Below are positions 13,483 through 52,271 of a DNA stretch of 64,000 nucleotides, piece by piece. The stretch is taken from assembly GCA_027623315.1 (NCBI GenBank), contig JAQBYD010000006.1, positions 27,209 through 91,208 on the forward strand. The letters are read 5' to 3'. Position 1 is the stretch's first letter, and each line of letters begins with the position of its first letter. Made by a program: the position numbers and the translations under genes. Source of the stretch: Verrucomicrobiota bacterium. GTDB taxonomy: Bacteria; Verrucomicrobiota; Kiritimatiellia; CAJWTS01. The notes under the pieces were generated by a model, which worked only from the letters and a program-made list of their open reading frames with translations, was not told the DNA's origin and did not search any database.

Positions 13483-14041
13483 CTGGGCTGTCATTCAGCG
13501 CGTGCGGGATGGTGACGTCGATTCGTTCGAGGAGCTTGTGACCGCCTACCAGGAACTCGTGTTCGGAATCGTGGCCCGGCGCGTTGCCGGCCCGGACGTG
13601 GAGAGCGTGGCGCAGGACATCTTCGTCTCCGCGTTTCAATCGTTAAAGGCCTATCATCCACGTGAACCTTTTCGCCGATGGCTCAGCACGATCGCGGTCC
13701 GTCGTTGCGTTGATCACTGGCGCAAGAAGGGTCGGATCCGGGAGATGACGGGGTCCGAGTTGAGCCCGGCGCAGTCCGATTGGCTCGAGCAGGCGGCTTC
13801 GTCGCTTTCACGCGACGAGTTCGAGAAGGCCCTGGTGCACGAAGAGGCGGCGGAAGTACTTGACCTCGCGCTACGCAGGATGGATCCTGAAGGGAGAGCG
13901 CTGATCGAACTGGTTTACTTCGAGGATCAACCGATGAAGGACGTGGCACGCTTCCTGGATATCAGCGTCTCGAACGCGAAGGTTAGATCTCATCGCGCGC
14001 GCCAGAAGTTGCGCAAGATTGTCGAGGACATGCTATCGTGA
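13454..14041 (+). CDS. ECF-type RNA polymerase sigma-70 factor (sigma-24 family)
   Basis: Start revised to ATG 13454 (MNASEDITDDWAVIQRVRDGDVDSFEELV...). Region 2 (YxxLVFGIVARRV, DIFVSAF) and region 4 (YFEDQPMKDVARFLDISVSNAKVRSHRARQKLR, an HTH) are recognisable. Confidence 0.85.
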   Translation: MNASEDITDDWAVIQRVRDGDVDSFEELVTAYQELVFGIVARRVAGPDVESVAQDIFVSAFQSLKAYHPREPFRRWLSTIAVRRCVDHWRKKGRIREMTGSELSPAQSDWLEQAASSLSRDEFEKALVHEEAAEVLDLALRRMDPEGRALIELVYFEDQPMKDVARFLDISVSNAKVRSHRARQKLRKIVEDMLS

Positions 14042-18075: not shown

Positions 18076-18945
18076 TCAGTGGAACTGGGCGTGCGGATGT
18101 TCGAGTGGTGCACCACGCGGGCCGTGCGAATGACCGGGCAAGCGCTCGAGTCCGACGGCGATCAGGACGCCTGCCAGCAGGGCCGTCGATAGGACGAGGC
18201 GATCGTGCCGGTGAAAGTGGACCTCCGGAAGAAGGTCGCCAAGTGAGATGCAGAGGAAGACGCCCGCCGAGAAGGCCAGTGCGCCTCCCAGCAGGTAGTC
18301 CTGCCACGCCTCAAAGTGACCCAGGCCGACCCAGACCAGCAGGGCCCCGAGTGGACACATCATAGCGAACCCGCAGTTCACCATGAGTTGCTTGCCGGTT
18401 GGCCAGCCGCGCGCGGCCATGAGCGACGTGATCGACAGAGCATCCAGCGGCTTGTGGAGTAGAATCGCCAGGAAGATCGCGAGCGAAACGGTCAGCGTGC
18501 CTGCAGCAGGCTCAGCCTTGACCGACGCGCCCAGGGCAACGCCGTCCATCAGCGTATGCACGCTCAATCCAATCGCCAGGCCGAGCCAGCTCAGCTGGTG
18601 TCCATGCGCGTGGTCATGCGAATCGTCGTGATGATGATCATGCTCCGTATCGTCGGCGCGCTCTGCCGGGCCATGAACGTGAAAGTGGAACGTGCGAATC
18701 AGGAAGAAGGTGGCCAGGAGTCCGATCAGCGTCCAGCCGGCGGCCGACTGATGCGACGGCAATCGACGAGCGGCCTCGGGAAGCAGGTGCAGCAGCGCGA
18801 CCCCGAGCATCAGACCCGCCACGAGGCTCATAATAATCTGCATGCGCAGGTGAGTCAGGCGCACGCGGGACGGAATCCAGCCTCCAAACATCGACGCGAG
18901 GACGATGAGCAGGCAATAGATCAGGATTAATGAGAGGGATGACAT
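18076..18945 (-). CDS. ZIP family metal (Zn/Fe) transporter with His-rich cytoplasmic loop
   Basis: The track start at 18993 is TTG. The ATG at 18945 gives MSSLSLILIYCLL... Eight TM helices, loop HFHVHGPAERADDTEHDHHHDDSHDHAHGH, conserved HxxxDG/ GxAxG-like TM motifs (HTLMDGVALGAS). Confidence 0.8.
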   Translation of the reverse strand: MSSLSLILIYCLLIVLASMFGGWIPSRVRLTHLRMQIIMSLVAGLMLGVALLHLLPEAARRLPSHQSAAGWTLIGLLATFFLIRTFHFHVHGPAERADDTEHDHHHDDSHDHAHGHQLSWLGLAIGLSVHTLMDGVALGASVKAEPAAGTLTVSLAIFLAILLHKPLDALSITSLMAARGWPTGKQLMVNCGFAMMCPLGALLVWVGLGHFEAWQDYLLGGALAFSAGVFLCISLGDLLPEVHFHRHDRLVLSTALLAGVLIAVGLERLPGHSHGPRGAPLEHPHAQFH

Positions 18946-19143
18946 CTTGAGAATCGACTGGGCGATGGTGCTGGAACGGACACCGAATGGCAAGGCGGGA
19001 TGAAGCGGTTACTCCGGGGAGAGTTACGGTTTTCGCGGGCAGAATCGTATCGGCCCGGGCTCCCTGATTCACAGACTGATGGCACGAGTCCTGCTCTTCA
19101 TCTATAGTAGAGGTGCTCTGGGGTCACCGCTGCGGGTTTGGGT

Positions 19144-22100
19144 ATGAGAATCGAAGATTTCACGGCACGAGTCATTGCGGTTGTTGTTGCATTGTTGGGC
19201 GTCGTCGGCCCAGATGTGTGCGCTGCTATGGAGAGGTCCGCTCGCGGGGAGTGGGTGCGACTGGATCGCGTGCCCGTTCGCAAGGAGCGGCTTCGCCCCT
19301 GGGTTCGTCCGGAGCATTTCGTGCCCTACAGACTCGACGCCCAGGCATTGCGGCGAACGCTGTTGAAGGTGCCCGGCCCCCCTGTCGCGGTCAGGAAATC
19401 CCCGGCGTTCGTGATTGAACTCCCCACGCCCCAAGGCGGGTTCGCGCGATACCGGATTACCGAGACGGCGCTCATGCATCCCGACCTTGCGCGGAAGTTC
19501 CCGGAGATCAAGACGTACGCGGGGCGTGGAATCGATGACCCACAGGCGTCGATCAGAATGGACTTCACCCCGCAGGGCTTTCACGCGCAGGTGCTTTCGC
19601 CCCGTGGCGCCTGCTACATCGATCCCTACTCGCACGGTGATACGACCACGTATGCCTGTTACTACAAGCGAAACTATCGCGCTCTCGGTAAACAATTTCA
19701 GTGTTTAGTCGACGAGGGCCAGGACGTTGCGGGGCGCGCACCCGTCGCGGCTCGGACCGACAACGGAGACACATTGCGCACCTTTCGTCTCGCGTGTGCG
19801 GCCACGGGTGAATACACCGCCTTCCACGGCGGAACGGTCGCTGCAGGGCTTGCGGCAATCGTCACGACGGTGAATCGGGTCGTCGGGATCTACGAGCTCG
19901 AGGTGGCGGTCAGCATGCAGTTGGTAGCGAACAACAACTTGATCGTGTACACGGGCTCCGGCACGGACCCCTACACCAACAACAACGGCATTGCCATGCT
20001 CGGGGAAAACCAGTCGAACCTGGACTCGGTAATTGGAAGTGCGAACTACGATATCGGGCACGTGTTCAGCACTGGCGGCGGAGGAATTGCTGGATTGGGA
20101 GTTGTCTGTAACAACAGCCGCAAAGCGGAGGGCGTGACCGGATTGCCGAGCCCGGTCGGGGACTCTTTCGACGTGGACTTCGTGGCGCACGAGATGGGGC
20201 ATCAGTTTAACGGTAGCCATACCTTCAACGGCTCGCAGGGAAACTGCAGCGGCGAAAATCGTACCGGATCGACGGCCTACGAACCCGGCAGTGGATCGAC
20301 CATCATGGCGTATGCTGGAATCTGCGGCACCGACAACCTGCAGGCCCACAGCGATCCCTACTTTCACTTCGCGAGCCTCGATCAGATCACTTCGTTTGTA
20401 TCGTCTGGCGGCGGTTCCGGTTGCGCGTCCAATAGCGTGACCGGTAACACGGTCCCGACGGCCGGCGCGGGCGCCGACTACACGATACCGCGGAGTACGC
20501 CGTTTGAGTTGACGGCATCCGGCAGCGATCCCAACGGAGACACGTTGACGTATGCGTGGGAAGAACGCGATCTCGGGGCCGCACAACAAGTGGGCGACGC
20601 GGATAACGGGGCAAGTCCCATTTTCCGGACATGGGATCCGACAAGTGATCCCGTTCGAACATTTCCGCGGCTACAGGATCTGCTCAACAACACGCTGTCG
20701 ACCGGCGAGAAGCTTCCAACCACAAGCCGCTCGCTGAATTTCAGGATTACGGTTCGTGACAACCGTTCCGGTGGCGGCGGATTCGATATGGACGACATGC
20801 TGGTGACGGTTGATGCAACTACCGGTCCGTTCACGGTGACGGCTCCGAACACCGCCGTGAACTGGTCCGGTGCGCGGACCGTCACGTGGAGCGTGGGGGG
20901 CACCGCTGGTGGCGCAGTGAACGCCACGAACGTCGATATCATGCTCTCGACCAACGGCGGAATGTCCTTCGATATCGCCCTTGCATCCGCCGTACCCAAC
21001 GATGGCTCGCATGGCGTGGTCCTGCCGGCCATCTCCAATACCCAGGCGCGGATCAAGGTGCAAGGGTCCGGGAACATCTTCTTCGACGTGTCGGACGCGA
21101 ACTTCACGGTTGAGTTCTCAGACGATCTGGCGGTGACACCGTTCGGCGGATTCTCGTCCACGGGAGAGGAGGGCGGGCCCTTCGCCCCGGCGTGCCGGGT
21201 CTATTCGCTATCCAACACTGGAGGTTCGAGTCTGACCTGGACCTCCGTCTATGCGGCGACGTGGCTTGACGTCTCGCCGCGGAGCGGCGTGTTGACTGGC
21301 GGGGGGACGACGAATATCGACGTCTGCGTCGCGAATTCGGCCACCGGCCTCACGGCCGCGACCTATTCGGATACGCTCACCTTCAGCAACGCAAGCAGTG
21401 GAGTCGCCCAGGACCGGGGCATATCCTTGCAGGTGGATCCATTCGTGCCGGGCGCGTTCGAGTTTACGACGACCGGATACTCGGTGCTGGAGTCGACCGC
21501 CAGTGCCACGGTGAGCGTGGCACGCGTCGGGGGGGCCTCAGGCGCGGTCTCGGTTCGATTTTCGACAAGCAACGGAACGGCGAGCGCCGGAACGGACTAC
21601 ACCACCAGCACGGGGACCCTTTCATGGGCAGCAAGCGATTCATCGAACCAGGTATTTACGGTGCCGATCACGGACGACTCGGATATCGAGGGCTCTGAAA
21701 CGATTAGCCTGTTCCTTAGTGAACCGACTGGAAATGCATCCCTCGCGGCCCCCAGCAATGCAACGCTAACGATCCTGGACGACGACGCAACCGTGATCGT
21801 GGCCGATGGGGCGACGCTGCTTGTAGAGGGGTGTTTTCCGACCAACGGCCTGATCGATCCCGGCGAGACCGTTACCGTGGATTTCTCCGTGCGCAGTACC
21901 AGCGGACCGAATACATCAAATCTTGTCGCTACGCTCGAGACGCACGGCGGTGTAACGTTTCCCGGCACCCCACAATCGTACGGGGTTCTGACCGCTGGCG
22001 GGGCCGCCGTGGCGCGCGGTTTTGCTTTTACACCAACAGGTACATGCGGCGGAACCGTGACGGCCCGGCTCGCACTGCAGGACGGCGCCCTCGACCTCGG

Positions 22101-25100
22101 GACGGTCGACTTTCTGCTGGATATGCCGGGCCGCGGCGCCACGACCCAGGAGTTTAACTATGCCGGATCGCCCGTCTCGATTCCGGACGCCAATGCGAAC
22201 GGCGTGGATATCCTGATCACTGTCAGCAATCTCTTCGGCTTGATCTCGGATCTCGATTTCAATATCGGCGGCAGCAGTTGCAGCAGCAGTCCGAATGCGA
22301 CCGGTAATGGAATCAACCATACCTGGGTCGGCGATCTCACTATTACGCTGGAGTCGCCAGAAGGAACGGTCGTCACCCTCATGCAGAAACCGGGGCCGGA
22401 TGCGGCGGGATCGAGCGGGAATCATTTCTGTAACACCGTTCTGGACGATGACAACGGAGTCAACTCGATCCAGAGCATCGCAAAGAGCGGGGCGCCTCCG
22501 CTCGGTCCACCGTACACGGGAGTTTTCACGCCGCTGCAGGCCTTGAGCGCATTCGACGGCGAGAATCCAAACGGCACGTGGACCGTCAACATCTCTGACG
22601 ATGCGGCCGGAGAGACGGGCGATGCGCGCGACCTTTCGGTGATCATTACCGCTGACGGTGGCGAATGCTGTGTGTCGTCGAACGCGGCCGACATTGCGAT
22701 CGGCAAGACCGCGAGCCAGTTGACGCCCCTCGAAGGGGCGTCGGTCGACTACACGATTGTCGTGACCAATCTGGGGCCAAACCTCGCAAGCGGTGTGGTG
22801 GCAACCGACGCCGTACCGGCTGGAGTGACCTACATTTCTTCCAGCAGTACAAATTATAGCCAGGCATCAGGGGAATGGGTCATTGGCAGCCTCGCCGTGG
22901 GGGCATCGACCTCGCTGGTCATTAGCGTAAGCGTGGACGGCGGGACCGCCGGAAACACGATTACGAATACAGCCACAGTGTCGTCCGCGAATCCACCCGA
23001 CCCGGTAACCGCCAACAATACGGCGACCGCCACATTCACCGTGCCGCTCGTGGATATCAACGTCACGAAGAGCGTCGACAATGCCACGCCGGGCGAAGAT
23101 GACGCGATCGTATATACGATCGCCGTTAGTAACCGCGGGCCGAGCGCCGCCAGCGGCGTTATCATCACCGATAGCGTGCCGGTCGGCGTGACGTACGTTT
23201 CCGACAACAGCGCGGACTACGCTCCCTCCAACGGGCTATGGAATGTCGGGGCGCTGGCTTCCGGGAGCGGGACGTCGTTGACGATTACCGTTACGGTGAA
23301 TGCGGCGACGCTCGGCCAAAGCATAACCAACCAGGCATCCGTGCTCGCCGTGGACCAATCGGATCAAACGCCCGGGAATGACAGTGATATCGCGACTATA
23401 CTCGTGTCCGGCATCGACGTTGGGATCACTAAACTGGTTGACGACGCAACTCCTGGTGCCGGCGACACGATTAACTATACGCTGATCGTCACTAATCTCG
23501 GCCCCGGTAATGCTTCCGGGGTTGTCGTCACGGATGCCGTTCCAGCCGGGGTGACGTTCCAGGGCGCGAGTAGTCCGGGATACAACCCGGGGTCAGGCCT
23601 CTGGAGCGTGGGCGACGTTGATGCCGGGTCCGGAGACACGCTGACGATCACCGTGACGGTCGATTCCGGCAGCGGCGGACTCGCAATCACGAATCGCGCC
23701 GCCATCAGCGCCACGGATCAATCGGACCTGTCATCGACCAACGATGCCGACACCGCGACGATTCAGGTATCGCTAATCGACGTTTCGATATCCAAATCGG
23801 TCGATAACGCGACACCGAATCCGGGCGCTACGATTATGTATACGGTGTTGGCGACCAACGTCGGTACGGACACGGCGGGCGGCGTCGAGGTAACCGATGC
23901 CGTGCCGGGAGGCGTCACCTTCGTCTTCGCGAATAACCCCGGCTACAATTCGTCCTCGGGGCTCTGGGTGGTCGGATCACTTGCGGTGGGCGAAGGCGCG
24001 ATCCTGGAAATCACGGTCACCGTCGATTCGGGAAGCGCCGGAAAAGCGATTACGAATTTCGCCGCGCTGAGCGCGATTGACCAGGTGGATGCCAATGTGT
24101 CGAATAATGAAGACATCGCCGTCATTTCCGTTCCCGGTGTCGATCTCGTAGATGTCGAAATCGCCAAGTCGGTGAATACAGCCGTCGCGAACGAAGGCGA
24201 CACCGTTATCTATACGATTGCCGCAACCAATGCGGGACCGGATGACGCGACGGGCCTGGTCGTGACAGACCTGCTGCCGGCCGGGGTGACCTATGTCTCG
24301 AGCGGTGGCGGAACGTATAATGAGACCAACGGCCTCTGGGCGATCGGCAGTTTGAACGCGGACGCTGTGACCAGCCTGGTCGTAACTGCCACGGTTGACG
24401 GTGGAACAGGAGGCACCGCGATCACGAACCTCGCTGCCGTCAGTGCGCTCGACCAGGCCGATTCGAATTCTGGCAACGATTCAGACACGGCCGTCGTCGC
24501 CGTGACGCTGGTCGACATCGGGATTGCAAAAACCGTCGATAAGCTGGTCGTGAACGAGGGCGACACCGTCGTCTACACAATCACGGTTACGAACGCAGGT
24601 CCAGATGCGGCGAGTGGGCTCGTTGTCACCGATGCCGTGCCGGCCGGCGTGTCGTTCATCTCCTCCGATAGCGCGACCTACAACGAGACGAATGGCTTAT
24701 GGGCGATCGGCAATCTCGCCGCCGGTTCGACGACTAGCCTGGTGGTCACGGCAACCATAGACGGCGGGACGGGTGGCACGTCGATCACCAACGTAGCGAC
24801 TGTGAGTGCACTCGATCAGGCGGACTCGAACGGTGGCAATGACAGCGATACCGTCGTCATCGCCGTAACCCTGGTCGATATCGCGGTTGCAAAATCGGTT
24901 GATCAAACCGTGGTGGATGAGGGTGATACGATCATCTACATAATTACCGTCACCAATGCGGGACCGGACGGCGCGACGGGCCTGGTCGTGACGGATCTCC
25001 TGCCGGCGGGGGTGACCTATGTCTCAAGCGGTGGCGGAACGTATAATGAGACCAATGGACTGTGGACGATCGGCGGCCTCGCCGAGAGTTCTGCGACGAG

Positions 25101-27105
25101 TTTGACCGTGACCGTGACCGTGGATGGTGGGATCGGTGGTGCCGTGATCACAAATGTCGCCGAAGTCAGCGCCGTTGATCAGGCCGACGCAAGCGCTGGA
25201 AACGACTCCGACGACGCCGTGGTCGCCGTTACTCTAGTTGATATCAGAGTCACCAAGACCTCCGACCAGGCGACCGTCGATGAAGGCGACACGGTCGTGT
25301 TCACGATTGCCGCAACCAATGCGGGACCGGACGATGCGACGGGCCTGGCCGTGACCGATCTGCTGCCGGTGGGCGTGACCTATGTGTCCAGCGCTGGCGG
25401 AACGTATAATGAGACCAACGGCCTCTGGGCAATCGGCAGTTTGAGCGCGGGCGCTGTGACCAGCCTGGTCGTAGCTGCCACGGTTGACGGTGGAACAGGA
25501 GGCACCGCGATTACAAACCTCGCTGCCGTCAGCGCGCTGGACCAGGCTGATTCCAGTGCCGGTAACGATTCCGATCAGGCCGCGGTTGCGATCACACTCG
25601 TGGATATCGGCGTGACAAAAACAGCCGACAGCTCGTTCGCGGACGAGAGCGACACGATCGTGTATACAATCGCGGCCACGAACGCCGGGCCGGACAACGC
25701 AACGGGGCTGGTCGTGGCGGACTTGTTGCCGGCGGGAGTCACGTTTGTCTCGGCGACAGGCGGAACGTATAACGAGACCAACGGACTTTGGACGATCGGC
25801 GGCTTAAGCGCGAGTTCCGTGACGAGTCTGGTCGTGACCGTGACCATCGACGGTGGTACCGGCGGGTCGGGTATTACGAACATCGCCACGGTGAATGCTG
25901 TGGACCAGGCGGACTCGAGCGCGGGTAATGATTCGGACAGCGCGGTGGTGGTGGTGACGCTCGTGGACATTGTCGTCACAAAGACCGTAGACCAGTCTAC
26001 GGTGGACGAGGGCGACACGATTGTTTTCACGATAGTGGCGACCAACGCCGGGCCGGACAGCGCGACGGGGTTGATTGTGAGCGACGTACTTCCGGTCGGG
26101 TTGACTTTCGCTTCCAGTGCGGGCGGTTCATACAATCACACAAACGGCCAGTGGACGATTGGCGGCCTTGCCGCGGGGGCCGTCACAAATCTCAGCATCA
26201 CCGTCGCGGTCGATGGCGGGACAGGCGGTACATCGATTACCAACACCGCTGCCGTCAGTGCGCTCGATCAGGCCGACTCAAATTCCACAAATGATTCCGA
26301 TTTTGCCGGGATCACGGTTCTCGCAGTCGATCTCGCCCTCGAGAAAACAGATCTCGTGGACCCGGTTGTGAGCAACAACGTCGTGATCTACACTTTGGCG
26401 GTGACGAATTTGGGGCCGGGGCAAGCGACATCGGTGGCCGTCGAGGACCCTTTGCCGGCCGGGATGACGTTCAATCCCACGGGGAGTGATCCGGGTTGCT
26501 CTTCGACCGGCGGCGTCGTGACATGTACGATCGGCACGCTCGCCTCGGGTGCAAGTACGAGTATTGTTGTCGTCGTTAATGTCAGCACCTCGCTGGTTGG
26601 CGTGGTCACGAATGCTGCGTCCGTGTCGACTGCCTCTACGGACGCATCTCCGGGTAACAATGTTGCCGCCGAAGATACCACCATCGCCGACTTTGACGGC
26701 GACGGCTCTCCGGACTTCCACGACCCGGACGACGATAACGATCTAGTTCCCGACTTCTGGGAGTTGCTCTATTCGCTCGATCCCTATGATGCGAGCGACG
26801 CCGCGCTGGATGGTGATGGCGATGGCTTCTCGAACGGGGATGAATACGTCGCGCAGACGGATCCCGGGGATCCTGATTCCTTCTTCAAAATCGAGCGAAT
26901 TACGATCATGAGCCCGGTAGAAATTCATTATCAGTCGCAGAGCGGAAGGGTCTATACGCTCCAGTACACGGACGATCTGATGCTCGTTCCGTTTACGAAT
27001 CATCCGTTCTATATCGAGATTCCGGGCACCGGCGGCCCAGGTCTGTTCATCGACAGCAACGGGCCGCCACGCCGCTTCTATATGATGGGAGTGGATCTTC
27101 CCTGA
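19144..27105 (+). CDS. Giant secreted multidomain protein: reprolysin/pappalysin-like zinc metalloprotease + Calx-beta + proprotein-convertase P-domain + 11 DUF11 repeats + Ca-binding TSP3-like repeats
   Basis: The track start 19138 is TTG. ATG at 19144 gives MRIEDFTARVIAVVVALLGVVG, a signal. Zincin motif HEMGHQFNGSH. Calx-beta segment: YSVLESTASATVSVARVGGASGAVSVRFSTSNGTASAGTDYTTSTGTLSWAA...SETISLFLSEP. P-domain-like segment: GDLTITLESPEGTVVTLMQKPG. Eleven ~121-aa repeats (...VTNLGP..ASGV.VTDAVPAGVTYVS...) are DUF11-like. C-terminal DFDGDGSPDFHDPDDDNDLVPD...DGDGDGFSNGDE are aspartate-rich Ca-binding repeats. Confidence 0.8.
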   Translation: MRIEDFTARVIAVVVALLGVVGPDVCAAMERSARGEWVRLDRVPVRKERLRPWVRPEHFVPYRLDAQALRRTLLKVPGPPVAVRKSPAFVIELPTPQGGFARYRITETALMHPDLARKFPEIKTYAGRGIDDPQASIRMDFTPQGFHAQVLSPRGACYIDPYSHGDTTTYACYYKRNYRALGKQFQCLVDEGQDVAGRAPVAARTDNGDTLRTFRLACAATGEYTAFHGGTVAAGLAAIVTTVNRVVGIYELEVAVSMQLVANNNLIVYTGSGTDPYTNNNGIAMLGENQSNLDSVIGSANYDIGHVFSTGGGGIAGLGVVCNNSRKAEGVTGLPSPVGDSFDVDFVAHEMGHQFNGSHTFNGSQGNCSGENRTGSTAYEPGSGSTIMAYAGICGTDNLQAHSDPYFHFASLDQITSFVSSGGGSGCASNSVTGNTVPTAGAGADYTIPRSTPFELTASGSDPNGDTLTYAWEERDLGAAQQVGDADNGASPIFRTWDPTSDPVRTFPRLQDLLNNTLSTGEKLPTTSRSLNFRITVRDNRSGGGGFDMDDMLVTVDATTGPFTVTAPNTAVNWSGARTVTWSVGGTAGGAVNATNVDIMLSTNGGMSFDIALASAVPNDGSHGVVLPAISNTQARIKVQGSGNIFFDVSDANFTVEFSDDLAVTPFGGFSSTGEEGGPFAPACRVYSLSNTGGSSLTWTSVYAATWLDVSPRSGVLTGGGTTNIDVCVANSATGLTAATYSDTLTFSNASSGVAQDRGISLQVDPFVPGAFEFTTTGYSVLESTASATVSVARVGGASGAVSVRFSTSNGTASAGTDYTTSTGTLSWAASDSSNQVFTVPITDDSDIEGSETISLFLSEPTGNASLAAPSNATLTILDDDATVIVADGATLLVEGCFPTNGLIDPGETVTVDFSVRSTSGPNTSNLVATLETHGGVTFPGTPQSYGVLTAGGAAVARGFAFTPTGTCGGTVTARLALQDGALDLGTVDFLLDMPGRGATTQEFNYAGSPVSIPDANANGVDILITVSNLFGLISDLDFNIGGSSCSSSPNATGNGINHTWVGDLTITLESPEGTVVTLMQKPGPDAAGSSGNHFCNTVLDDDNGVNSIQSIAKSGAPPLGPPYTGVFTPLQALSAFDGENPNGTWTVNISDDAAGETGDARDLSVIITADGGECCVSSNAADIAIGKTASQLTPLEGASVDYTIVVTNLGPNLASGVVATDAVPAGVTYISSSSTNYSQASGEWVIGSLAVGASTSLVISVSVDGGTAGNTITNTATVSSANPPDPVTANNTATATFTVPLVDINVTKSVDNATPGEDDAIVYTIAVSNRGPSAASGVIITDSVPVGVTYVSDNSADYAPSNGLWNVGALASGSGTSLTITVTVNAATLGQSITNQASVLAVDQSDQTPGNDSDIATILVSGIDVGITKLVDDATPGAGDTINYTLIVTNLGPGNASGVVVTDAVPAGVTFQGASSPGYNPGSGLWSVGDVDAGSGDTLTITVTVDSGSGGLAITNRAAISATDQSDLSSTNDADTATIQVSLIDVSISKSVDNATPNPGATIMYTVLATNVGTDTAGGVEVTDAVPGGVTFVFANNPGYNSSSGLWVVGSLAVGEGAILEITVTVDSGSAGKAITNFAALSAIDQVDANVSNNEDIAVISVPGVDLVDVEIAKSVNTAVANEGDTVIYTIAATNAGPDDATGLVVTDLLPAGVTYVSSGGGTYNETNGLWAIGSLNADAVTSLVVTATVDGGTGGTAITNLAAVSALDQADSNSGNDSDTAVVAVTLVDIGIAKTVDKLVVNEGDTVVYTITVTNAGPDAASGLVVTDAVPAGVSFISSDSATYNETNGLWAIGNLAAGSTTSLVVTATIDGGTGGTSITNVATVSALDQADSNGGNDSDTVVIAVTLVDIAVAKSVDQTVVDEGDTIIYIITVTNAGPDGATGLVVTDLLPAGVTYVSSGGGTYNETNGLWTIGGLAESSATSLTVTVTVDGGIGGAVITNVAEVSAVDQADASAGNDSDDAVVAVTLVDIRVTKTSDQATVDEGDTVVFTIAATNAGPDDATGLAVTDLLPVGVTYVSSAGGTYNETNGLWAIGSLSAGAVTSLVVAATVDGGTGGTAITNLAAVSALDQADSSAGNDSDQAAVAITLVDIGVTKTADSSFADESDTIVYTIAATNAGPDNATGLVVADLLPAGVTFVSATGGTYNETNGLWTIGGLSASSVTSLVVTVTIDGGTGGSGITNIATVNAVDQADSSAGNDSDSAVVVVTLVDIVVTKTVDQSTVDEGDTIVFTIVATNAGPDSATGLIVSDVLPVGLTFASSAGGSYNHTNGQWTIGGLAAGAVTNLSITVAVDGGTGGTSITNTAAVSALDQADSNSTNDSDFAGITVLAVDLALEKTDLVDPVVSNNVVIYTLAVTNLGPGQATSVAVEDPLPAGMTFNPTGSDPGCSSTGGVVTCTIGTLASGASTSIVVVVNVSTSLVGVVTNAASVSTASTDASPGNNVAAEDTTIADFDGDGSPDFHDPDDDNDLVPDFWELLYSLDPYDASDAALDGDGDGFSNGDEYVAQTDPGDPDSFFKIERITIMSPVEIHYQSQSGRVYTLQYTDDLMLVPFTNHPFYIEIPGTGGPGLFIDSNGPPRRFYMMGVDLP
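24130..26290 (+). repeat. Six near-identical ~363-bp tandem DNA repeats (DUF11 repeat units 5-10) inside the giant metalloprotease gene
   Basis: Strings such as accaatgcgggaccggacg.tgcgacgggcctggtcgtgac recur at 24228, 24952 and 25314. ggaacgtataatgagaccaa(c/t)gg also recurs. The encoded repeats (LVDI.V.KTVDQ..VDEGDT..YTI.ATNAGPD.ATGL.VTD...) are more than 80% identical to each other. Confidence 0.75.
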
Positions 27106-27343: not shown

Positions 27344-29755
27344 CTACTTCGATCCCACCCCGCGGCGCTCCATTACTTCGAGGATCAGGATCAGGGTCTC
27401 CTTTTCCGTGTCCTTGGAAATGGCGTTGGGGTCGAGTCCGGTCTGCTCAACCAATTTGCGGGTCCAGTCGAAGCCGGAGGCCTGTTGCTGGAAGCCCATG
27501 CCGGTGCGCCACGAGAGGTCGCGCAGGTTGTTGAGTAGCTGTTTGGCGATCTCGTCCTTGCCGGCGATCTCTGCGGCAAGGAGCCAGCAGGTGAGGTTGC
27601 GCGTCATGCTGATGGCCTCGGGCGCCGCCCACCGGTAACGCGGGAGATAGAGGGCACCGCCCTCCCAGGGGAAACCCTTTGCGAGGCGCTCGGTGGAATA
27701 TTTCAGCTCTGCCGCGAGAACCTTGCGCACGATGCCCCCGCGCAGGCGCTGCTCGAGCGTACCCAGCCACGCGGTGGCACGCTGCCTGTCGGCGTTGGTC
27801 TCTCCGCGCAGGGCGAGTTCGGTCAGCGGACGCACTGCGCTCGCGCGCATTCCGAGCAAGAGCGCGGCGACCGCCTCGCGCTTGGACGGATCGGCCGCCT
27901 CCTGCCTGAGCAGGTCCTTGATGGCTTCGGCGCCGCGAATGCGCATCAGTGCCGCGCCGGCCCACATCTTGACCAGGTTGGGCGCGGTCTTGTCGTCGAC
28001 GATCTGCTGCAAAGGCTTGACCGCCGTCTTGGTCCCGATGTCGGCCAGGCAGACGATCGCCCAGCCACGGCGGGTGTAGTCGGTTCCTTCGACCGCTTCG
28101 CCAACCAGTTGAGGGACGACCGTGTCACCGCGCGCGATCAACGTCGCCGCTGCATCTTGCGACGTCTTCGGATCGCCCAACGCATCCAGCAGTTTACTGA
28201 TGTCGCCGAGGTCCCTGGCGGATACAACCGTGCCGAAGCTTGCGATCGCAAGAATCAGGAAGAGGCGTGAGTGACGGGAGTAAACGACGAGGCCCATGAG
28301 GCAGACACAGCCCACAATGGTGCCCGAGATCCGGGAGGAGAGTTGTGACAAGCCGAAGCCTTTGAACACTCGATGGAACCATGAGCTCTGCTTTCTCTCC
28401 AGATCGCCACGTTTCAGGTCGTGCGCCGCGTACTTTTCGAAGGTCAGGTTCTGCTTGGCGATCACATCGCGCGGGAAGTCGCCCTCAATTACGGTCAGGC
28501 TCAATCCAGCAAAATCTTTGCCGATGGCTTCGAACGCACTGGCGCGTTCCTCGTCGATGACCTCACCGATGAGTTCGTCGACATTCTCGCCGCGCAGACC
28601 AAGGCGCTCGCCGAGCAGGAGAAGTTCTTTCTCACGCTCCTCGAACGGATGGGTCAGCTTCCCGGTGCGCAGAGCAAGGAGATCTGAGCTCATCAGGTCC
28701 AGGGCATGCCCGTTGTGGGGTGAGGGGTCGCGATCGTATTCGGGGCGTTTGAAGTAGCCCGCTTTCTCGGCCTGCTCGATCGTGCCACCGAGTACCTTTA
28801 CGGGCAACGGCTCGGTCATATGCTTGTAGAGCTGCGCGCCGGCGATGCGGCCTTTCACGAACTTTTCGGGCAACTCTTTGATTCGGACCGCCTGATCGCT
28901 GAAGAAGTATACAATGTTGAAGAGTTCGCCTTCGTTGAATGCCGAGAGCCGCATCGGCACGACCGGCTCCTTGACACGGAACCTGAAGCCCATGGCCTGA
29001 ACGGCCCCTTCGAATCCAGCGCCCGGCGTGCTCGCATCGGCTTTGCGCATCCCCGGCTTGGGCTCGACCGCCGCCTGGCTGCCGACGTTGGCCTTGACGG
29101 CCACGAAGCACCAGTCCTCTTCAATGTATTCTCTGCAGACGTCATCCATGCCGGTGGGATAGACGTAGCCGTGTTGCGACATCCAGCGCTGCAGGGCCCG
29201 CGGATCCGTCGCTGCGAGGACGGCGACCTGGTACATGCCGACGGCTTCCTCCTTCAGGACGGTGACGGTCCCGAGCGAGAGCTCTTCGGCTTCTGACATG
29301 TCGGCCATTGCCGATTTGAGCATGCGTCTCGCCATCATCGGCCGTGGCCGCATATCGATCACGATTTCCGGCGGTTCGATCGCTTTCTCGATATGAGCGA
29401 AAATCGGGTCGGGCACCTTGCGAATATCGGGTGGGGTGGGGAACGGGATCAGCATGCCGAAGTCGTTGAGCTTTCCCTTGAAGCCCGGCCGCAGCGCGAT
29501 GTCTTCAACGCCGTCCTTGAAGAAGACGTAGGTGAGTTGATCACCGACACGCATCAGTTCGGGAGTCCCGCTGGTCAATGCGATAGGAGGTACCATCCCG
29601 CAAGGGTCTGCGTGGGCGCCGGATGTGATGGCGATGGCCGCCAGGCAGATCGCCACGATCGACGTCCGGTGACGTAGACCCCGGAAGATGAATCGGCCAG
29701 GTTTACGATGAGGTTGGGCTCTTTTCATATGCATTGAATCTCTACGCGGTTTCAT
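27344..29755 (-). CDS. DUF2330-like secreted/membrane protein with C-terminal HEAT/PBS-lyase-like repeat region
   Basis: 803 aa. The ATG at 29755 is preceded by GAAGGAG on the minus strand. N-terminal anchor plus ...ADPCGMVPP. A central TM segment (GTIVGCVCLMGLVVY). The C-terminal ~330 aa are alpha-helical repeats (LLDALGDP...AAATLIARGD...) resembling HEAT/PBS lyase repeats. Confidence 0.55.
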   Translation of the reverse strand: MKPRRDSMHMKRAQPHRKPGRFIFRGLRHRTSIVAICLAAIAITSGAHADPCGMVPPIALTSGTPELMRVGDQLTYVFFKDGVEDIALRPGFKGKLNDFGMLIPFPTPPDIRKVPDPIFAHIEKAIEPPEIVIDMRPRPMMARRMLKSAMADMSEAEELSLGTVTVLKEEAVGMYQVAVLAATDPRALQRWMSQHGYVYPTGMDDVCREYIEEDWCFVAVKANVGSQAAVEPKPGMRKADASTPGAGFEGAVQAMGFRFRVKEPVVPMRLSAFNEGELFNIVYFFSDQAVRIKELPEKFVKGRIAGAQLYKHMTEPLPVKVLGGTIEQAEKAGYFKRPEYDRDPSPHNGHALDLMSSDLLALRTGKLTHPFEEREKELLLLGERLGLRGENVDELIGEVIDEERASAFEAIGKDFAGLSLTVIEGDFPRDVIAKQNLTFEKYAAHDLKRGDLERKQSSWFHRVFKGFGLSQLSSRISGTIVGCVCLMGLVVYSRHSRLFLILAIASFGTVVSARDLGDISKLLDALGDPKTSQDAAATLIARGDTVVPQLVGEAVEGTDYTRRGWAIVCLADIGTKTAVKPLQQIVDDKTAPNLVKMWAGAALMRIRGAEAIKDLLRQEAADPSKREAVAALLLGMRASAVRPLTELALRGETNADRQRATAWLGTLEQRLRGGIVRKVLAAELKYSTERLAKGFPWEGGALYLPRYRWAAPEAISMTRNLTCWLLAAEIAGKDEIAKQLLNNLRDLSWRTGMGFQQQASGFDWTRKLVEQTGLDPNAISKDTEKETLILILEVMERRGVGSK

Positions 29756-30100: not shown

Positions 30101-31201
30101 CTACTTCTCAAAGGCCAGGAGTTCAATCACGGGCGCGGGCGTGTCGCTTCGCTTGGAAGCGCGGACGATGAGCTTAATGGCTTCGCGTCTGCCGATCGGG
30201 TCAACGCCCCGCACCACGCGCCGGACGGACACCGACACGCCGTGCACGTATTCGTTGACGGTGACGGGTCTGGCTCCGGGTGTGCCCACGGTGGCCCGGC
30301 GGTGCGTCCAGCGTCCCCAGATGCTGGCGATCGCGGGCAATGCCTTGATGGCGGCCTCAATGTAGGGCTCTCTGAGGTGCGGGCAGATGCGTGCGGCTTC
30401 CAGGTTGGCATGAAGCTTCTCGAGGATCGCGTCGCGGTCGAATTCGAAGGTGGAATCGTCACGCCACGCGCCGAGTTCGAACCACTCGGCGTCGATCTCC
30501 CAGTCCATCTTCGCAAGCCGGCAACCCCAGGTGTTGATGGAATCGCTGCCCGCGCCGAAGCAGTACGAGTCCGACTCGTCGCTGGCGTCATGCGCGCGGA
30601 TGCATGCCTCGACGCCGGCTGCTTCAGCCATGATCGCGGTGATCTCTTCTGGCGGCTCTTCCTTCTCAACCTCGTCAGGATCCGGCCTTGAGGGAGTTTC
30701 CAGAGCAGGAGGTTCGGGCGGCGTCTCCGGCTCGAGCGGAGGCAAGGGCGGCGGCGCCGGGGAGGCCTCTATTGCGCCCGGCGAATCGAAGGGATGCCTG
30801 GACGTGGATTCCCCGGCGCGGGTCAGCACACGGTCAAGGTCCTTCCGAGCGCCTTCCACCAGCGCGTCCATGTCGGCCTGGCTGACCTGGAGCTGTGCCG
30901 CGAAACTCTCGATCGGTTTGCTTTCCGCTGCATCGATGGTCCCGTCCGCCAGCGCGATCATGACCATGTCGTGGACGTTGTCCAGCCGGCGCTGGCGGGA
31001 GTGAACGTAGCCGAGGCTGTAGGTACCCTGGCCGAGCAGGCTCCGCGCGGCCATGAAGTGGCGTTGCTCCGCACCAATTCGTTCAGCAATCGCCTGGAAC
31101 ACGAGCGCTTCTTCGCGCGCATCCTTGCCGTCAGCCTTCGCCACGCTGAGCACGTTGGCGAGATACGTGGCCTTGTCTGCATGCGTGAAAGAGTCTTTCA
31201 T
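30101..31201 (-). CDS. TerB-like N-terminal domain protein with Pro/Glu-rich linker and uncharacterised C-terminal domain
   Basis: Start taken at ATG 31201 (MKDSFTHADKATYLANVLSVAKADGKDAREEALVFQAIAERIG...MIALADGTIDAAESKPIESFAAQLQVSQADMDAL). The track start at 31240 is GTG. Two amphipathic pairs with conserved D/E match the TerB/DjlA-N tellurite-resistance fold. Linker PPLPPLEPETPPEPPALETPSRP. Confidence 0.55.
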   Translation of the reverse strand: MKDSFTHADKATYLANVLSVAKADGKDAREEALVFQAIAERIGAEQRHFMAARSLLGQGTYSLGYVHSRQRRLDNVHDMVMIALADGTIDAAESKPIESFAAQLQVSQADMDALVEGARKDLDRVLTRAGESTSRHPFDSPGAIEASPAPPPLPPLEPETPPEPPALETPSRPDPDEVEKEEPPEEITAIMAEAAGVEACIRAHDASDESDSYCFGAGSDSINTWGCRLAKMDWEIDAEWFELGAWRDDSTFEFDRDAILEKLHANLEAARICPHLREPYIEAAIKALPAIASIWGRWTHRRATVGTPGARPVTVNEYVHGVSVSVRRVVRGVDPIGRREAIKLIVRASKRSDTPAPVIELLAFEK

Positions 31202-31252
31202 AGGCTTGGGCGGCGACGGCACGGCGATGCCGTGCGTCACCGTGCGCCGGCG

Positions 31253-32749
31253 TTACTCGCCGGCTGGTTTCTTGTCCTCGGGCTGCGGCCCACTCGAGGT
31301 TTTGCCAAGGAAGTCCGGCAGATCGAGCCCAAGTTGTGCTGCCAGTTCGTGCATCGGAGGCAGCGCGCCCATCAGGCGTTGACCCAGCCCGGACATGCCC
31401 TGGTTATCGCCGCCGCTATCCCAGACGAAGATCTTGTCGATCGGCAGATCCTGAATGGCCTGGGCCTGCACACGAGCGACCTCCAGCAGTTTTTCGATCA
31501 GCAGGAGCGAAGCCGCTTGCTCGCCTGACGAGCAGGCTTCAACCAGCTTGTTGTAACCTTCGGCTTTGCCGGTGAGGATCGCTTGCACGCCTTTGGCCTC
31601 GGCGCTCATCTTGGCCAGGATCGCTTCGGCCTCGCCCTGCGCGACGCGAATCGACTGCTCCCGGTTGGCATCGGCCGCGATCATGACCCGCTCGCGGTCC
31701 GCGTCGGCGGGTACCACGATCTCGGCTTTCAATCTCGCGGTCTCGCGCTCGGAACGAGCTTCCTCGGCTAGCTTCTGGGCGACTTCCTGTGCAACGCGAA
31801 TCGCGCCGTCAGCCGCACGCTCGGCGGATTGACCCCGGTTTCTCGCCTCCTCCTCGGCCACTTTCTGGTTGGCGCGGAAGCCCGCCTTGTCGGAGTCGGC
31901 CTTGGTTTCACCCGATACGGCTTCGGCATCGAGGATCGCGGACTGCTGCCGGCGGTCGCGGTCTGCGCGGGCTTCGCCGATCTCCGCGTCCGCGTTCGCG
32001 GCGGCTACGGCCACGCGCTGGTCACGGCTTCGCTCGGCAACACCGGTCTGTCCCGTTTTTTCCTGCTCGGCGACGTCGACATTGGCCTGGTTGATCGCCT
32101 CGGCCGCGGCGCGGCGCCCGAGGGCCACGATGTAACCGGATTCGTCTTCGATATCGCGAATGTTGACGTTGATCAGGGACAAACCAATCTTTTCGAGTTC
32201 GCCCGAGACCGCCTCGTTCACCTTTTTCAGGAACGCCTGTCGGTCCTGGTTAATCTCCTCGATCTTCATCGTCGCGATCACTGCACGCATCTGGCCGAGG
32301 ATGATGTCCTGCGCCTGTCCTTCGATATCTTTGGCCGGCAACCCCAGCAGGCGAATCGCCGCGTTCTCCATCACGCCTTTTTGCGTGGAGATAGCGGCGG
32401 TAACCGTGGTGGGGACCGTGACGCGGATATTCTCAAACGAGAGTGCATTCTTGAGGTCGATCGGAACCACGAAAGGCTCCAGGTCGAGGTAATCGTATGC
32501 CTGGAACAACGGCCACACGAATGCGGCGCCGCCGTGGATGCACTTGGCCACTCCCTGGTTCGTCTTTCCGTAGATCACCAGGATCCTGTTCGACGGACAG
32601 CGCCGGTAGCGCGTCATAAAGCTGAATAGAAGCACGATGATGATCGCACCAAACAGCAGCGATAGAATTAACCCGACCGGGATCTGGCCGGCCGCCGCGA
32701 GTATGATTGGAAATTGTGCTGTGCTCATTTGTGTTGCTAATGCCTCCAT
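31253..32749 (-). CDS. Flotillin-like SPFH/band-7 protein (YqiK/FloT-like)
   Basis: 498 aa. N-terminal TM (IILAAAGQIPVGLILSLLFGAIIIVLLF), SPFH core, and a long Ala/Glu/Arg-rich coiled-coil flotillin repeat region (AEAEIGEARADRDRRQQ...). Confidence 0.8.
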   Translation of the reverse strand: MEALATQMSTAQFPIILAAAGQIPVGLILSLLFGAIIIVLLFSFMTRYRRCPSNRILVIYGKTNQGVAKCIHGGAAFVWPLFQAYDYLDLEPFVVPIDLKNALSFENIRVTVPTTVTAAISTQKGVMENAAIRLLGLPAKDIEGQAQDIILGQMRAVIATMKIEEINQDRQAFLKKVNEAVSGELEKIGLSLINVNIRDIEDESGYIVALGRRAAAEAINQANVDVAEQEKTGQTGVAERSRDQRVAVAAANADAEIGEARADRDRRQQSAILDAEAVSGETKADSDKAGFRANQKVAEEEARNRGQSAERAADGAIRVAQEVAQKLAEEARSERETARLKAEIVVPADADRERVMIAADANREQSIRVAQGEAEAILAKMSAEAKGVQAILTGKAEGYNKLVEACSSGEQAASLLLIEKLLEVARVQAQAIQDLPIDKIFVWDSGGDNQGMSGLGQRLMGALPPMHELAAQLGLDLPDFLGKTSSGPQPEDKKPAGE

Positions 32750-52256: not shown

Positions 52257-52271
52257 GCAGGGTTCAGGGTT
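52257..52271. repeat. Left arm of 15-bp perfect inverted repeat (cagggttcagggttc)
   Basis: Tandem heptamer agggttc x2. The exact reverse complement occurs at 52671-52685. Confidence 0.8.

What the first reader, a model, noticed from the sequence alone, without database searches (positions are those of the whole stretch)
19144..27105. 2650-aa surface mega-protein: reprolysin-like Zn protease fused to Calx-beta, P-domain, 11 DUF11 repeats and Ca-binding C-terminus
The HEMGHQFNGSH zincin motif sits ~350 aa from a signal peptide, with many Cys/Gly-rich stretches as in reprolysin or pappalysin folds. A canonical Calx-beta repeat follows, then a kexin-type P-domain-like segment (GDLTITLESPEGTVVTLMQKPG), eleven ~121-aa DUF11 repeats, and an Asp-rich DxDxDG block plus a conserved ~70-aa tail. 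This is a protease-adhesin chimera. The C-terminal tail after the TSP3-like repeats may be a secretion or anchoring signal of an unrecognised type. It is not an obvious PEP-CTERM, LPXTG or T9SS CTD.
Basis: partly seen in the sequence, partly recalled or inferred. Interest (0 to 1): 0.55.

Follow-up and report, generated by a model that had tools for sequence, protein, structure and literature searches.

The report
Stalked surface zinc protease, unrecognised tail
This gene encodes a 2,653-residue secreted ADAM-like zinc protease carried on a long stalk of eleven cross-link-type repeats; the protein is otherwise ordinary, but it ends in a small, uncatalogued domain that sits at the very C-terminus of many unrelated secreted proteins of Verrucomicrobiota-group bacteria and may be an anchoring or sorting module.

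Summary
ORF 19144-27105 (+) encodes a 2,653-aa protein: signal peptide, ADAM-like prodomain and reprolysin-type catalytic domain (HEMGHQFNGSH plus Met-turn), Calx-beta, P-domain, eleven 121-aa DUF11 repeats, TSP3-type Asp-rich repeats and a ~75-aa tail.

It is not a one-off chimera. The N-terminal ~650 aa belong to a large Planctomycetota/Verrucomicrobiota family (at least 7,998 homologues, 52-63% identity among the 120 listed). The closest relative is colinear but lacks Calx-beta and has one DUF11 repeat. DUF11 is the published CLIPPER isopeptide stalk domain, and all 11 repeats keep the Lys/Asp/Asn triad.

The tail is the interesting part. It is a confidently modelled small beta-sandwich, only weakly Fn3-like, with no Pfam, NCBIfam or PDB match. 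It lies at the extreme C-terminus in 106/114 protein hits and in 94/96 genomic copies, usually ending in Pro. It follows very diverse passenger domains, occurs several times per genome, and is found almost only in Kiritimatiellia/Lentisphaerae/Verrucomicrobiota assemblies. Orthologous proteases carry dockerin-like or IPTL-CTERM signals at the same position.

An anchoring or sorting role is therefore likely but unproven. Interest is moderate.

The parts
19144..19227 (+). Sec-type signal peptide (aa 1-28: MRIEDFTAR / VIAVVVALLGVVG / PDVCA|A). There is no lipobox.
   Evidence: Read from the sequence. Modelled as a low-confidence N-terminal helix at aa 4-18.
19228..19743 (+). Prodomain-like beta-rich region (aa ~29-200), highly conserved in the family. 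Invariant Cys187 lies just before a disordered linker (aa 192-202) and is a candidate cysteine switch.
19756..20418 (+). Reprolysin/adamalysin-type (metzincin) catalytic domain, aa ~205-425.
20188..20220 (+). Zinc-binding motif HEMGHQFNGSH (aa 349-359). H349, E350, H353 and H359 are invariant. Asn356 replaces the family's near-invariant Gly.
20299..20313 (+). Met-turn T-I-M-A-Y (aa 386-390).
   Evidence: T386, I387 and Y390 are invariant; M388 is present in 49/50 homologues.
20425..21138 (+). Two conserved post-catalytic beta-sandwich domains (aa ~428-665) that complete the ~650-aa family core.
21205..21369 (+). Weak BACON-like segment (aa 688-742).
   Evidence: Pfam BACON_2, E 6.8e-4, below the gathering score.
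21451..21786 (+). Calx-beta domain (aa 770-881), an insertion relative to the closest relative.
   Evidence: Pfam 74.5 bits. The L001 homologue aligns to aa 9-767 and then resumes at aa 883.
22312..22623 (+). Proprotein-convertase-type P-domain (aa 1057-1160).
   Evidence: Pfam P_proprotein, 40.2 bits against a cutoff of 21. The domain is common in this family.
22690..26697 (+). Eleven tandem DUF11 (CLIPPER) repeats of 121-123 aa (aa 1183-2518). Each keeps Lys6, Asp40 and Asn93, the predicted isopeptide triad. This is the stalk.
   Evidence: PMC12617251. Repeats 5-10 are 61-80% identical to each other; the others are 30-58% identical.
26698..26877 (+). TSP3-type Asp-rich Ca-binding repeats (aa ~2519-2578: DFDGDGSPD..., PDFWE...LDP, DGDGDGFSNGDEYVAQTDPGDPDS).
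   Evidence: TSP3_bac, and weak hits to Amuc_1099_fam and MtsD that cover this stretch only. The block is conserved in front of the tail in other carriers.
26878..27102 (+). Strictly C-terminal ~75-aa beta-sandwich tail, ending ...RRFYMMGVDLP at the C-terminus. It belongs to an uncatalogued domain family.
27103..27105 (+). Stop codon.

Best explanation
The gene encodes a Sec-exported, cell-surface-associated zinc metalloprotease built like a fibrillar surface protein.

Head. The N-terminal head is an ADAM/adamalysin-type zymogen. A prodomain, possibly latched by the invariant Cys187, is followed by a metzincin catalytic domain with two beta-sandwich domains. Calx-beta and P-domain modules follow, probably for Ca-dependent stabilisation or substrate binding.

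Stalk. Eleven CLIPPER (DUF11) domains, each predicted to be locked by a Lys-Asn isopeptide bond, form a rigid, protease-resistant stalk. Assuming the usual ~4 nm per Ig-like domain (general knowledge, not measured here), it would be about 40-50 nm long.

Base. The C-terminal unit consists of Ca-binding TSP3 repeats and a strictly C-terminal small beta-sandwich ending in Pro. It is the envelope-proximal end. It either docks the protein onto a cell-surface partner, in the manner of a dockerin, or is recognised by an export or attachment machinery, so that the stalk holds the protease away from the cell.

What is shown: the domain identities, the catalytic residues, the family membership, the expansion of the repeats, and the positional and taxonomic behaviour of the tail.

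What is inferred: zymogen latency, isopeptide bonds, surface tethering through the tail, and the orientation of the molecule.
For: Protease:
- Pfam Reprolysin_4, E 3.7e-30.
- H349, E350, H353 and H359 are invariant and the Met-turn is conserved (I387 and Y390 invariant, M388 49/50) across 50 homologues.
- The model has pLDDT 80.7.

Family:
- At least 7,998 homologues, the 120 listed at 52-63% identity. Those that carry a source name are called reprolysin-like, M12-family or zinc-dependent metallopeptidase, or hypothetical protein, from Planctomycetota/Verrucomicrobiota.
- The closest relative, L001, is colinear with one DUF11 repeat and no Calx-beta.

Stalk:
- 11 DUF11 repeats.
- Lys6, Asp40 and Asn93 are invariant in all 11. 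The spacings are 34 and 87 residues, against 33 and 91 in crystal structure 9IFR (PMC12617251).
- That paper describes the usual layout as signal peptide, functional domains, DUF11 stalk, then sorting domain.

Tail:
- No Pfam or NCBIfam model matches it and there is no PDB sequence match.
- The model is confident, with pLDDT 87.9.
- 106/114 protein hits end within 10 aa of the C-terminus, and 91/106 of those end in Pro.
- 94/96 genomic copies end 0-4 codons before a stop codon.
- Passenger domains are diverse: LamG, FG-GAP, PKD, beta-helix, sulfatase, cadherin, DUF11.
- Up to 8 copies per MAG were seen, which is a lower bound.
- Named sources are almost all Kiritimatiellia, Lentisphaerae/Victivallales or Verrucomicrobiota.
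- Among the 120 closest protease homologues, the C-terminus is this tail in 41, dockerin-like in 10 and an IPTL-CTERM-type TM tail in 3. The IPTL-CTERM in P0044 scores 31.4 bits against a cutoff of 20.5.
Against: - There is no experimental or co-occurrence evidence for any partner or machinery.
- No gene recurs next to tail-bearing genes. The largest neighbour cluster is in 11 of 80 loci and is mostly antisense shadow ORFs.
- No sortase, exosortase or secretion genes lie in the 64-kb window.
- Occasional tandem copies exist, for example P0127 and one genomic case 110 codons before the stop, so a free C-terminus is not absolutely required.
- Asn356 replaces the near-invariant metzincin Gly, so full catalytic competence is not certain.
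- The isopeptide bonds and the Cys switch are inferred from motifs only. Model coordinates could not be inspected.
- Only about half of the carriers passed a crude signal-peptide test. Many of the rest are fragments.
Confidence: 0.6

Rival explanations
1. The protein is a freely secreted extracellular protease, exported by the Sec pathway and then, for example, type II secretion. The tail is only a terminal Fn3-like structural cap or a substrate- or glycan-binding module, with no role in sorting or anchoring. The DUF11 array acts as a spacer between catalytic and binding ends.
For: The tail fold is generic, with only weak Fn3-like similarity. No linked machinery or conserved neighbour was found. 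Rare tandem copies of the tail exist. Fn3-like and CBM-like end domains are common in secreted bacterial enzymes (general knowledge).
Against: A generic Fn3 or binding module would be expected at internal positions and in arrays. Instead 94/96 genomic copies abut the stop codon and 91/106 protein tails end in Pro. The tail follows many unrelated passenger domains, always with the TSP3 prefix. Orthologues carry bona fide sorting or anchoring signals (IPTL-CTERM, dockerin-like) at the same position.
Confidence: 0.3
2. The C-terminal unit is a type I secretion signal. Ca-binding repeats precede a C-terminal signal, as in RTX adhesins, and the protein is exported in one step by an ABC/MFP/TolC system.
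For: The layout of Ca-binding Asp-rich repeats directly followed by a C-terminal element resembles RTX/T1SS substrates (general knowledge). The protein is a giant repeat protein.
Against: The protein, and at least half of the other carriers with intact N-termini, have classical Sec signal peptides. The repeats are TSP3-type, not GGxGxD nonapeptides. The tail is a well-folded beta-sandwich. No T1SS genes flank the gene or other carriers.
Confidence: 0.04
3. The tail is a very divergent type IX secretion C-terminal domain (CTD), and the protein is a T9SS cargo like the gingipains or mirolysin.
For: The logic is the same: a Sec signal plus a ~75-aa beta-sandwich at the extreme C-terminus of diverse secreted proteins, including proteases.
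Confidence: 0.03

Closest known systems
Reprolysin-like (M12B-like, adamalysin/ADAM fold) metallopeptidases of Planctomycetota/Verrucomicrobiota. Sources name them 'reprolysin-like metallopeptidase', 'M12 family metallo-peptidase' or 'zinc-dependent metalloprotease family protein'.
   Same: The same ~650-aa core at 52-63% identity among the 120 listed homologues. The zinc ligands and Met-turn are intact. The fold matches ADAM17 prodomain plus catalytic domain. Many members add a P-domain, DUF11 and the same tail.
   Different: About twice the usual length (2,653 aa against 860-1,250). It has 11 DUF11 repeats instead of 0-1, an inserted Calx-beta domain, and Asn in place of the near-invariant Gly in HExxHxxGxxH. 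No family member has been characterised biochemically, as far as the literature searches showed.
Fibrillar adhesin-like surface proteins with CLIPPER (DUF11) isopeptide stalks (PMC12617251; PDB 9IFR)
   Same: The layout is signal peptide, functional head, tandem DUF11 stalk, C-terminal end module. The Lys/Asp/Asn triad is conserved in every repeat with matching spacing.
   Different: The head is a protease zymogen rather than an adhesive domain. The end module is none of the catalogued sorting domains. Isopeptide bonds are predicted here, not observed.
T9SS cargo proteins with a C-terminal domain (for example the gingipains and mirolysin/mirolase of Bacteroidota)
   Same: A Sec signal plus a small beta-sandwich that is strictly C-terminal, shared by many unrelated secreted proteins in one lineage. 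Several such cargos are proteases.
   Different: No sequence or specific structural similarity to T9SS CTDs. The phylum differs. The tail always has a TSP3 Ca-binding prefix and a terminal Pro.
Dockerin-type Ca-dependent anchoring modules and the IPTL-CTERM sorting signal
   Same: Both occupy the same C-terminal position in orthologous proteases (10 and 3 of 120). As in dockerins, the unit includes Ca-binding Asp-rich loops.
   Different: The tail has no transmembrane helix or basic cluster, so it is not an exosortase- or IPTL-type signal. It has no EF-hand-pair dockerin fold; it is a beta-sandwich.

Membership tests
Metzincin / M12B reprolysin-adamalysin peptidases | Zinc-binding motif HExxHxxGxxH with the three His and the catalytic Glu | tested here: met
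   HEMGHQFNGSH at aa 349-359. H349, E350, H353 and H359 are invariant in 50 homologues. The Gly position is Asn in this protein only (47/50 have Gly).
Metzincin / M12B reprolysin-adamalysin peptidases | Conserved Met-turn downstream of the zinc site | tested here: met
   T-I-M-A-Y at aa 386-390. I387 and Y390 are invariant; M388 is present in 49/50.
Metzincin / M12B reprolysin-adamalysin peptidases | Adamalysin catalytic fold, with a prodomain in the zymogen | tested here: met
Metzincin / M12B reprolysin-adamalysin peptidases | Zinc-dependent endopeptidase activity, with latency through a cysteine (or aspartate) switch | not testable with these tools
   Invariant Cys187 at the end of the prodomain is a candidate switch.
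CLIPPER (DUF11, PF01345) isopeptide stalk domains | Match to PF01345/TIGR01451 in tandem | tested here: met
   11 stretches, 954 bits in total. TIGR01451 matched 11 times.
CLIPPER (DUF11, PF01345) isopeptide stalk domains | Lys / Asp / Asn triad at the positions seen in 9IFR (Lys715, Asp748, Asn806) | tested here: met
   Lys6, Asp40 and Asn93 are invariant in all 11 repeats. The spacings are 34 and 87 residues against 33 and 91 (PMC12617251). A direct sequence alignment to 9IFR was not obtained.
CLIPPER (DUF11, PF01345) isopeptide stalk domains | Covalent Lys-Asn bond actually formed | not testable with these tools
   This needs mass spectrometry or a crystal structure.
T9SS C-terminal sorting domain | Match to the T9SS CTD profiles (Pfam/NCBIfam type A or B) | tested here: not met
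   No hit at E<=10 for this tail or at E<=1 for 54 relatives.
T9SS C-terminal sorting domain | T9SS machinery genes in the genome | not tested
   Only a 64-kb window and 6-kb flanks of other loci were available. None were seen there.
PEP-CTERM / IPTL-CTERM / LPXTG-type sorting signals | Short motif, then a hydrophobic transmembrane helix, then a basic cluster at the C-terminus | tested here: not met
   The last 25 aa (…GLFIDSNGPPRRFYMMGVDLP) have no TM helix. No NCBIfam hit. By contrast the orthologue P0044 does match IPTL-CTERM.
Type I secretion (RTX) substrates | GGxGxD nonapeptide repeats, no N-terminal signal peptide, linked ABC/MFP genes | tested here: not met
   The repeats are TSP3-type. 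A Sec signal peptide is present. No T1SS genes lie nearby.
Proposed new family: strictly C-terminal 'TSP3 + FYR...P' tail of Verrucomicrobiota-group secreted proteins | ~75-aa beta-sandwich with the consensus S-x-F-x-I...F-x-S-S-x-x-R-x-Y-T-L...W...P-G-x-G-G...R-F-Y-R-x-x-V-x-L-P, ending at the stop codon and preceded by a TSP3 motif | tested here: met
   The tail profile A2 was built with this tail as its first sequence, so the profile score is not an independent test. Independent support: the tail alone retrieved the family in the exhaustive single-sequence search (114 clusters, best E 2.3e-19). R44 and Y46 are invariant in A2. This copy has M-M where the family has R-[IVL] (FYMMGVDLP). It ends exactly at the stop codon.

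The most novel reading that the evidence does not exclude
The TSP3-plus-beta-sandwich tail would be the recognition signal of an undescribed outer-membrane export or cell-surface attachment pathway. The pathway would be specific to Kiritimatiellia, Lentisphaeria and Verrucomicrobiae, and a functional analogue of the T9SS C-terminal domain or of dockerin-cohesin docking. It would define the surface proteome, enzymes and adhesin-like proteins alike, of these polysaccharide-degrading bacteria.
Probability: 0.3. Interest if true: 0.8.

Novelty: new variant of a known kind. Interest (0 to 1): 0.45.

Why it matters
The protein itself is an enlarged member of a large but biochemically unstudied family of ADAM-like proteases in PVC bacteria.

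What could matter more is the tail. It is a lineage-restricted, strictly C-terminal domain that is absent from Pfam and NCBIfam and follows many unrelated secreted proteins. This is the same kind of pattern that led to the discovery of PEP-CTERM/exosortase and of the T9SS C-terminal domain.

If it is a sorting or docking signal, it would give a simple sequence handle for predicting the surface-exposed proteome of Kiritimatiellia, Lentisphaerae and Verrucomicrobiota. These are important degraders of sulfated glycans in marine and gut environments. It would also be a starting point for finding the machinery that recognises the tail.

The protein is also a clear example of an isopeptide-type CLIPPER stalk carrying an enzyme rather than an adhesin. 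Stalk length varies between close relatives, from 1 to 11 repeats.

Tried and rejected
- A word-indexed search with the tail alone found nothing. The exhaustive HMMER search was needed.
- The genome scan with the 54-sequence tail alignment failed for lack of conserved stretches. A 6-sequence alignment worked.
- A PDB sequence search with the protease module found nothing. The tail profile gave one chance-level hit, E 1.2.
- A PDB sequence search with one DUF11 repeat returned only spurious armadillo-repeat matches and did not retrieve 9IFR.
- Tandem Repeats Finder found no DNA-level array. The repeats are only 53-83% identical in DNA.
- The search for a conserved neighbour of tail-bearing genes gave only antisense shadow ORFs.
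- No other tail-bearing gene lies in the window.
- Exact look-up of the big protein failed. Neighbouring genes placed the window on a 93-kb metagenome scaffold, and the source genome is not among the GTDB representatives.
- Six literature searches found no description of this tail or of this protease family. They did find the CLIPPER/DUF11 paper.
- T9SS CTD, PEP-CTERM/LPXTG and T1SS readings were considered and rejected on tested features (see the membership tests).
- Co-regulation with the divergent ZIP zinc transporter was considered. Only a weak palindrome supports it, and it was not pursued.
Full report
OBSERVATION

A single ORF runs from 19138 (TTG) or 19144 (ATG) to the stop at 27103-27105 on the + strand. 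From the ATG it encodes 2,653 aa. Its GC content (~0.61) matches its surroundings.

- Reprolysin_4/2/5/3 at aa 210-407 (E 3.7e-30 to 3.1e-23).
- Calx-beta at aa 770-881 (74.5 bits).
- P_proprotein at aa 1057-1160 (40.2 bits, cutoff 21).
- DUF11 x11, 954 bits in total, and TIGR01451 x11.
- The zincin motif HEMGHQFNGSH at aa 349-359.
- Eleven repeats of 121-123 aa spanning aa 1183-2518.

The N-terminus (MRIEDFTAR-VIAVVVALLGVVG-PDVCA|A) reads as a Sec signal peptide without a lipobox. This was read from the sequence.

The Asp-rich block at aa ~2519-2578 is TSP3-type. It gives a TSP3_bac hit and weak hits to Amuc_1099_fam and MtsD that are confined to this stretch. The last ~78 aa match nothing in Pfam or NCBIfam even at E<=10.

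THE PROTEASE HEAD

The first 719 aa retrieve at least 7,998 homologues, the 120 listed at 52-63% identity. Most carry no name; those that do are called reprolysin-like, M12-family or zinc-dependent metallopeptidase, or hypothetical protein, from Planctomycetota, Phycisphaerae and Verrucomicrobiota. Their typical length is 860-1,250 aa.

In a 50-sequence alignment, H349, E350, H353 and H359 are invariant and the Met-turn is conserved (I387 and Y390 invariant, M388 in 49/50). Four Cys (187, 322, 368, 394) are invariant and C427 is present in 48/50. This protein alone has Asn356 where 47/50 homologues have the metzincin Gly.

So aa ~29-200 is a prodomain and the protein is a zymogen-type adamalysin. 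Invariant Cys187 sits just before a disordered linker (aa 192-202) and is a candidate cysteine switch. That is an inference.

Residues ~428-665 form two conserved beta-sandwich domains that belong to the family core.

NOT A ONE-OFF CHIMERA

The closest relative found is L001, a marine metagenome-assembled genome. It is colinear with this protein: aa 9-767 at 59% identity, aa 883-1304 at 50%, and aa 2395-2652 at 53%. It lacks the Calx-beta domain and has one DUF11 repeat instead of eleven.

Many family members combine the protease with a P-domain, DUF11 and the same tail. This gene is therefore an expanded member of a standard architecture.

Repeats 5-10 are 61-80% identical to one another (61-83% in DNA). 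The other repeats are 30-58% identical. This points to a fairly recent internal amplification. Tandem Repeats Finder reports no DNA-level array.

THE STALK

DUF11 has been renamed CLIPPER and shown crystallographically (PDB 9IFR) to contain a Lys-Asp-Asn intramolecular isopeptide triad. It typically forms the stalk of fibrillar surface proteins, between the functional domains and a sorting domain (PMC12617251).

All eleven repeats here keep an invariant Lys6, Asp40 and Asn93. The spacings are 34 and 87 residues, against 33 and 91 in 9IFR. I infer a covalently stabilised stalk, but bond formation was not tested. A direct sequence match to 9IFR was not obtained; that search returned only spurious armadillo-repeat hits.

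THE TAIL

The indexed search found no relatives of the 79-aa tail. An exhaustive phmmer search of 1.84 billion representatives found 114 clusters at E<=1e-3.

Position and ending:
- In 106 of the 114, the match ends within 10 residues of the protein's C-terminus. The proteins range from about 70 aa to more than 2,000 aa.
- 91 of the 106 end in Pro, and 48 end in Leu-Pro.
- The consensus is EYxADTDPTxxxSxFxI...FxSSTxRVYTL...DLxxGxWxNVPGQxxxPGxGG...RFYRxxVxLP, with an invariant Arg and Tyr.
- In 80 genomic loci read as raw DNA, independent of gene calls, 94 of 96 copies end 0-4 codons before a stop codon, and 69 end exactly at it.

Carriers and annotation:
- Full-length carriers bear very different passenger domains, including DUF11, LamG, FG-GAP, CARDB, PKD, beta-helix, PMP repeats, sulfatase and cadherin.
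- They share no Pfam family, so the tail is not in Pfam.
- None of 54 tails hits an NCBIfam model, apart from the TSP3 prefix.
- The tail profile finds no PDB sequence beyond one chance-level hit, E 1.2.

Taxonomy and copy number:
- Named sources are Kiritimatiellae/Kiritimatiellia and Pontiellaceae.
- The genome scan added Victivallales, Lentisphaerae and many 'Verrucomicrobiota' MAGs.
- Up to 8 distinct copies per MAG were seen among only the best 80 loci, so this is a lower bound.

Fold:
- The tail is modelled confidently (pLDDT 87.9) as a small beta-sandwich.
- No T9SS C-terminal domain appears among the listed matches.

Comparison within the protease family: among the 120 closest protease homologues, 41 end in this tail, always terminally, plus 3 more by motif alone. 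The 41 include a Verrucomicrobia-type variant, W.A..G..Y.VQ...L....W....RFYRV...P. Another 33 end in a different conserved tail (...YPYxGPxxCP), 10 end in dockerin-like Asp-rich repeats and 3 end in a TM-plus-basic tail. One of those three, P0044, is a bona fide IPTL-CTERM sorting domain at 31.4 bits against a cutoff of 20.5.

The tail therefore sits where this family otherwise carries known anchoring or sorting modules.

LIMITS OF THE SORTING INTERPRETATION

- No gene recurs beside tail-bearing genes. The apparent neighbour clusters are mostly antisense shadow ORFs.
- The 64-kb window holds no sortase, exosortase or secretion genes.
- No second tail-bearing gene lies in the window.
- Rare tandem copies of the tail exist.
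- My crude signal-peptide test passed only 22 of 44 carriers that begin with Met. Many of the failures look like truncated gene calls.
- Six literature searches found no description of this tail.

MECHANISM (BEST ESTIMATE)

1. The preprotein is exported by the Sec pathway.
2. The ADAM-like zymogen head folds with its Ca-binding and beta-sandwich accessory domains.
3. The eleven CLIPPER domains form an isopeptide-locked stalk. At roughly 4 nm per Ig-like domain (general knowledge, not measured here) it would be about 40-50 nm long.
4. The C-terminal unit of TSP3 repeats and beta-sandwich holds the protein on the cell envelope. It does this either by Ca-dependent docking to a surface partner or by recognition by an export or attachment system.
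5. The protease is thereby presented at a distance from the cell.

The physiological substrate cannot be deduced from the sequence.

The main rival is a freely released protease whose tail is a structural or ligand-binding end domain (confidence about 0.3). T1SS and T9SS readings fail on tested features.

CONTEXT

The window corresponds to a 93-kb metagenome scaffold (ENA ERZ23495042, sample SAMN03444948). Its genome is not among the GTDB representatives.

- Upstream, and transcribed divergently, lies a ZIP zinc-transporter gene (18076-18993).
- Downstream, and convergent, lies a DUF2330/HEAT protein gene (27344-29755).

Neither association was seen to be conserved.

VERDICT

The gene is an expanded member of a known but uncharacterised protease family, with a known stalk type. 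The uncatalogued, strictly C-terminal tail family is the part worth following up.

Noticed in passing
window 6765-13463 (-): A second giant ORF of 2,232 codons. The likely true start is at an internal signal peptide, MGRSKFSILTRGFVLLMAAAQLAYA. It has almost no recognisable domains, only a sub-threshold 3-keto-disaccharide hydrolase/DUF1080-like hit. It lies next to an ECF sigma factor gene at 13382-14041 (+).
   Followed up: no
window 18076-18993 (-) and intergenic 18994-19143: A ZIP-family zinc transporter gene is transcribed divergently from the zinc protease gene. The 150-bp shared intergenic region holds a sigma-70-like promoter match (19079-19108). An imperfect palindrome (19093-19116) overlaps its -10 element. 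Zinc-linked co-regulation is possible but untested.
   Followed up: partly
window ~52000-64000: GC content drops from ~0.61 to 0.45-0.54. The genes here encode two GT4 glycosyltransferases, a sulfotransferase, an ABC exporter, an asparagine-synthase-like protein, an MBOAT O-acyltransferase and a SASA-type esterase. This looks like a glycan synthesis or modification island, possibly acquired horizontally.
   Followed up: partly
homologues P0004, P0008, P0011, P0014, P0022 and others: 33 of the 120 closest protease homologues end in a different conserved C-terminal module...AFxGxxYPYxGPxxCP at the C-terminus. The members scanned (P0004, P0016) had no NCBIfam hit on it, and the precomputed Pfam lists show nothing beyond the reprolysin domains. 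It may be a second uncatalogued C-terminal module in Planctomycetota/Phycisphaerae.
   Followed up: no
window 20209-20211 (aa 356): This protein has Asn where 47 of 50 family members have the conserved Gly of HExxHxxGxxH, and Gly follows one position later. The effect on the zinc-site turn, and therefore on activity, is unknown.
   Followed up: partly
window 19702-19704 (aa 187): Cys187 is invariant in 50/50 homologues. It lies at the end of the ADAM17-like prodomain, just before a disordered linker, and is a candidate cysteine-switch residue.
   Followed up: partly
window 22690-26697 (DUF11 repeats): A single DUF11 repeat gives statistically 'significant' but spurious PDB sequence hits to designed armadillo-repeat proteins and importin-alpha. 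The cause is the segment LWAIGNLAAG and summed weak repeat matches. This is a caution for automated annotation.
   Followed up: yes
window 27344-29755 (-): An 803-aa protein with DUF2330 and HEAT repeats lies convergent to the protease gene. Further downstream are TerB-like and SPFH/Band-7 genes (30101-32749) and two ORFs with no family hit (32769-33413 and 33692-34717).
   Followed up: no
L049 (CAZXTL010000062.1, 2.6-kb contig): One tail-bearing locus is labelled Candidatus Marinamargulisbacteria, the only source named outside the PVC group. Because the contig is so short, this is more likely a binning contaminant than real occurrence outside the group.
   Followed up: no
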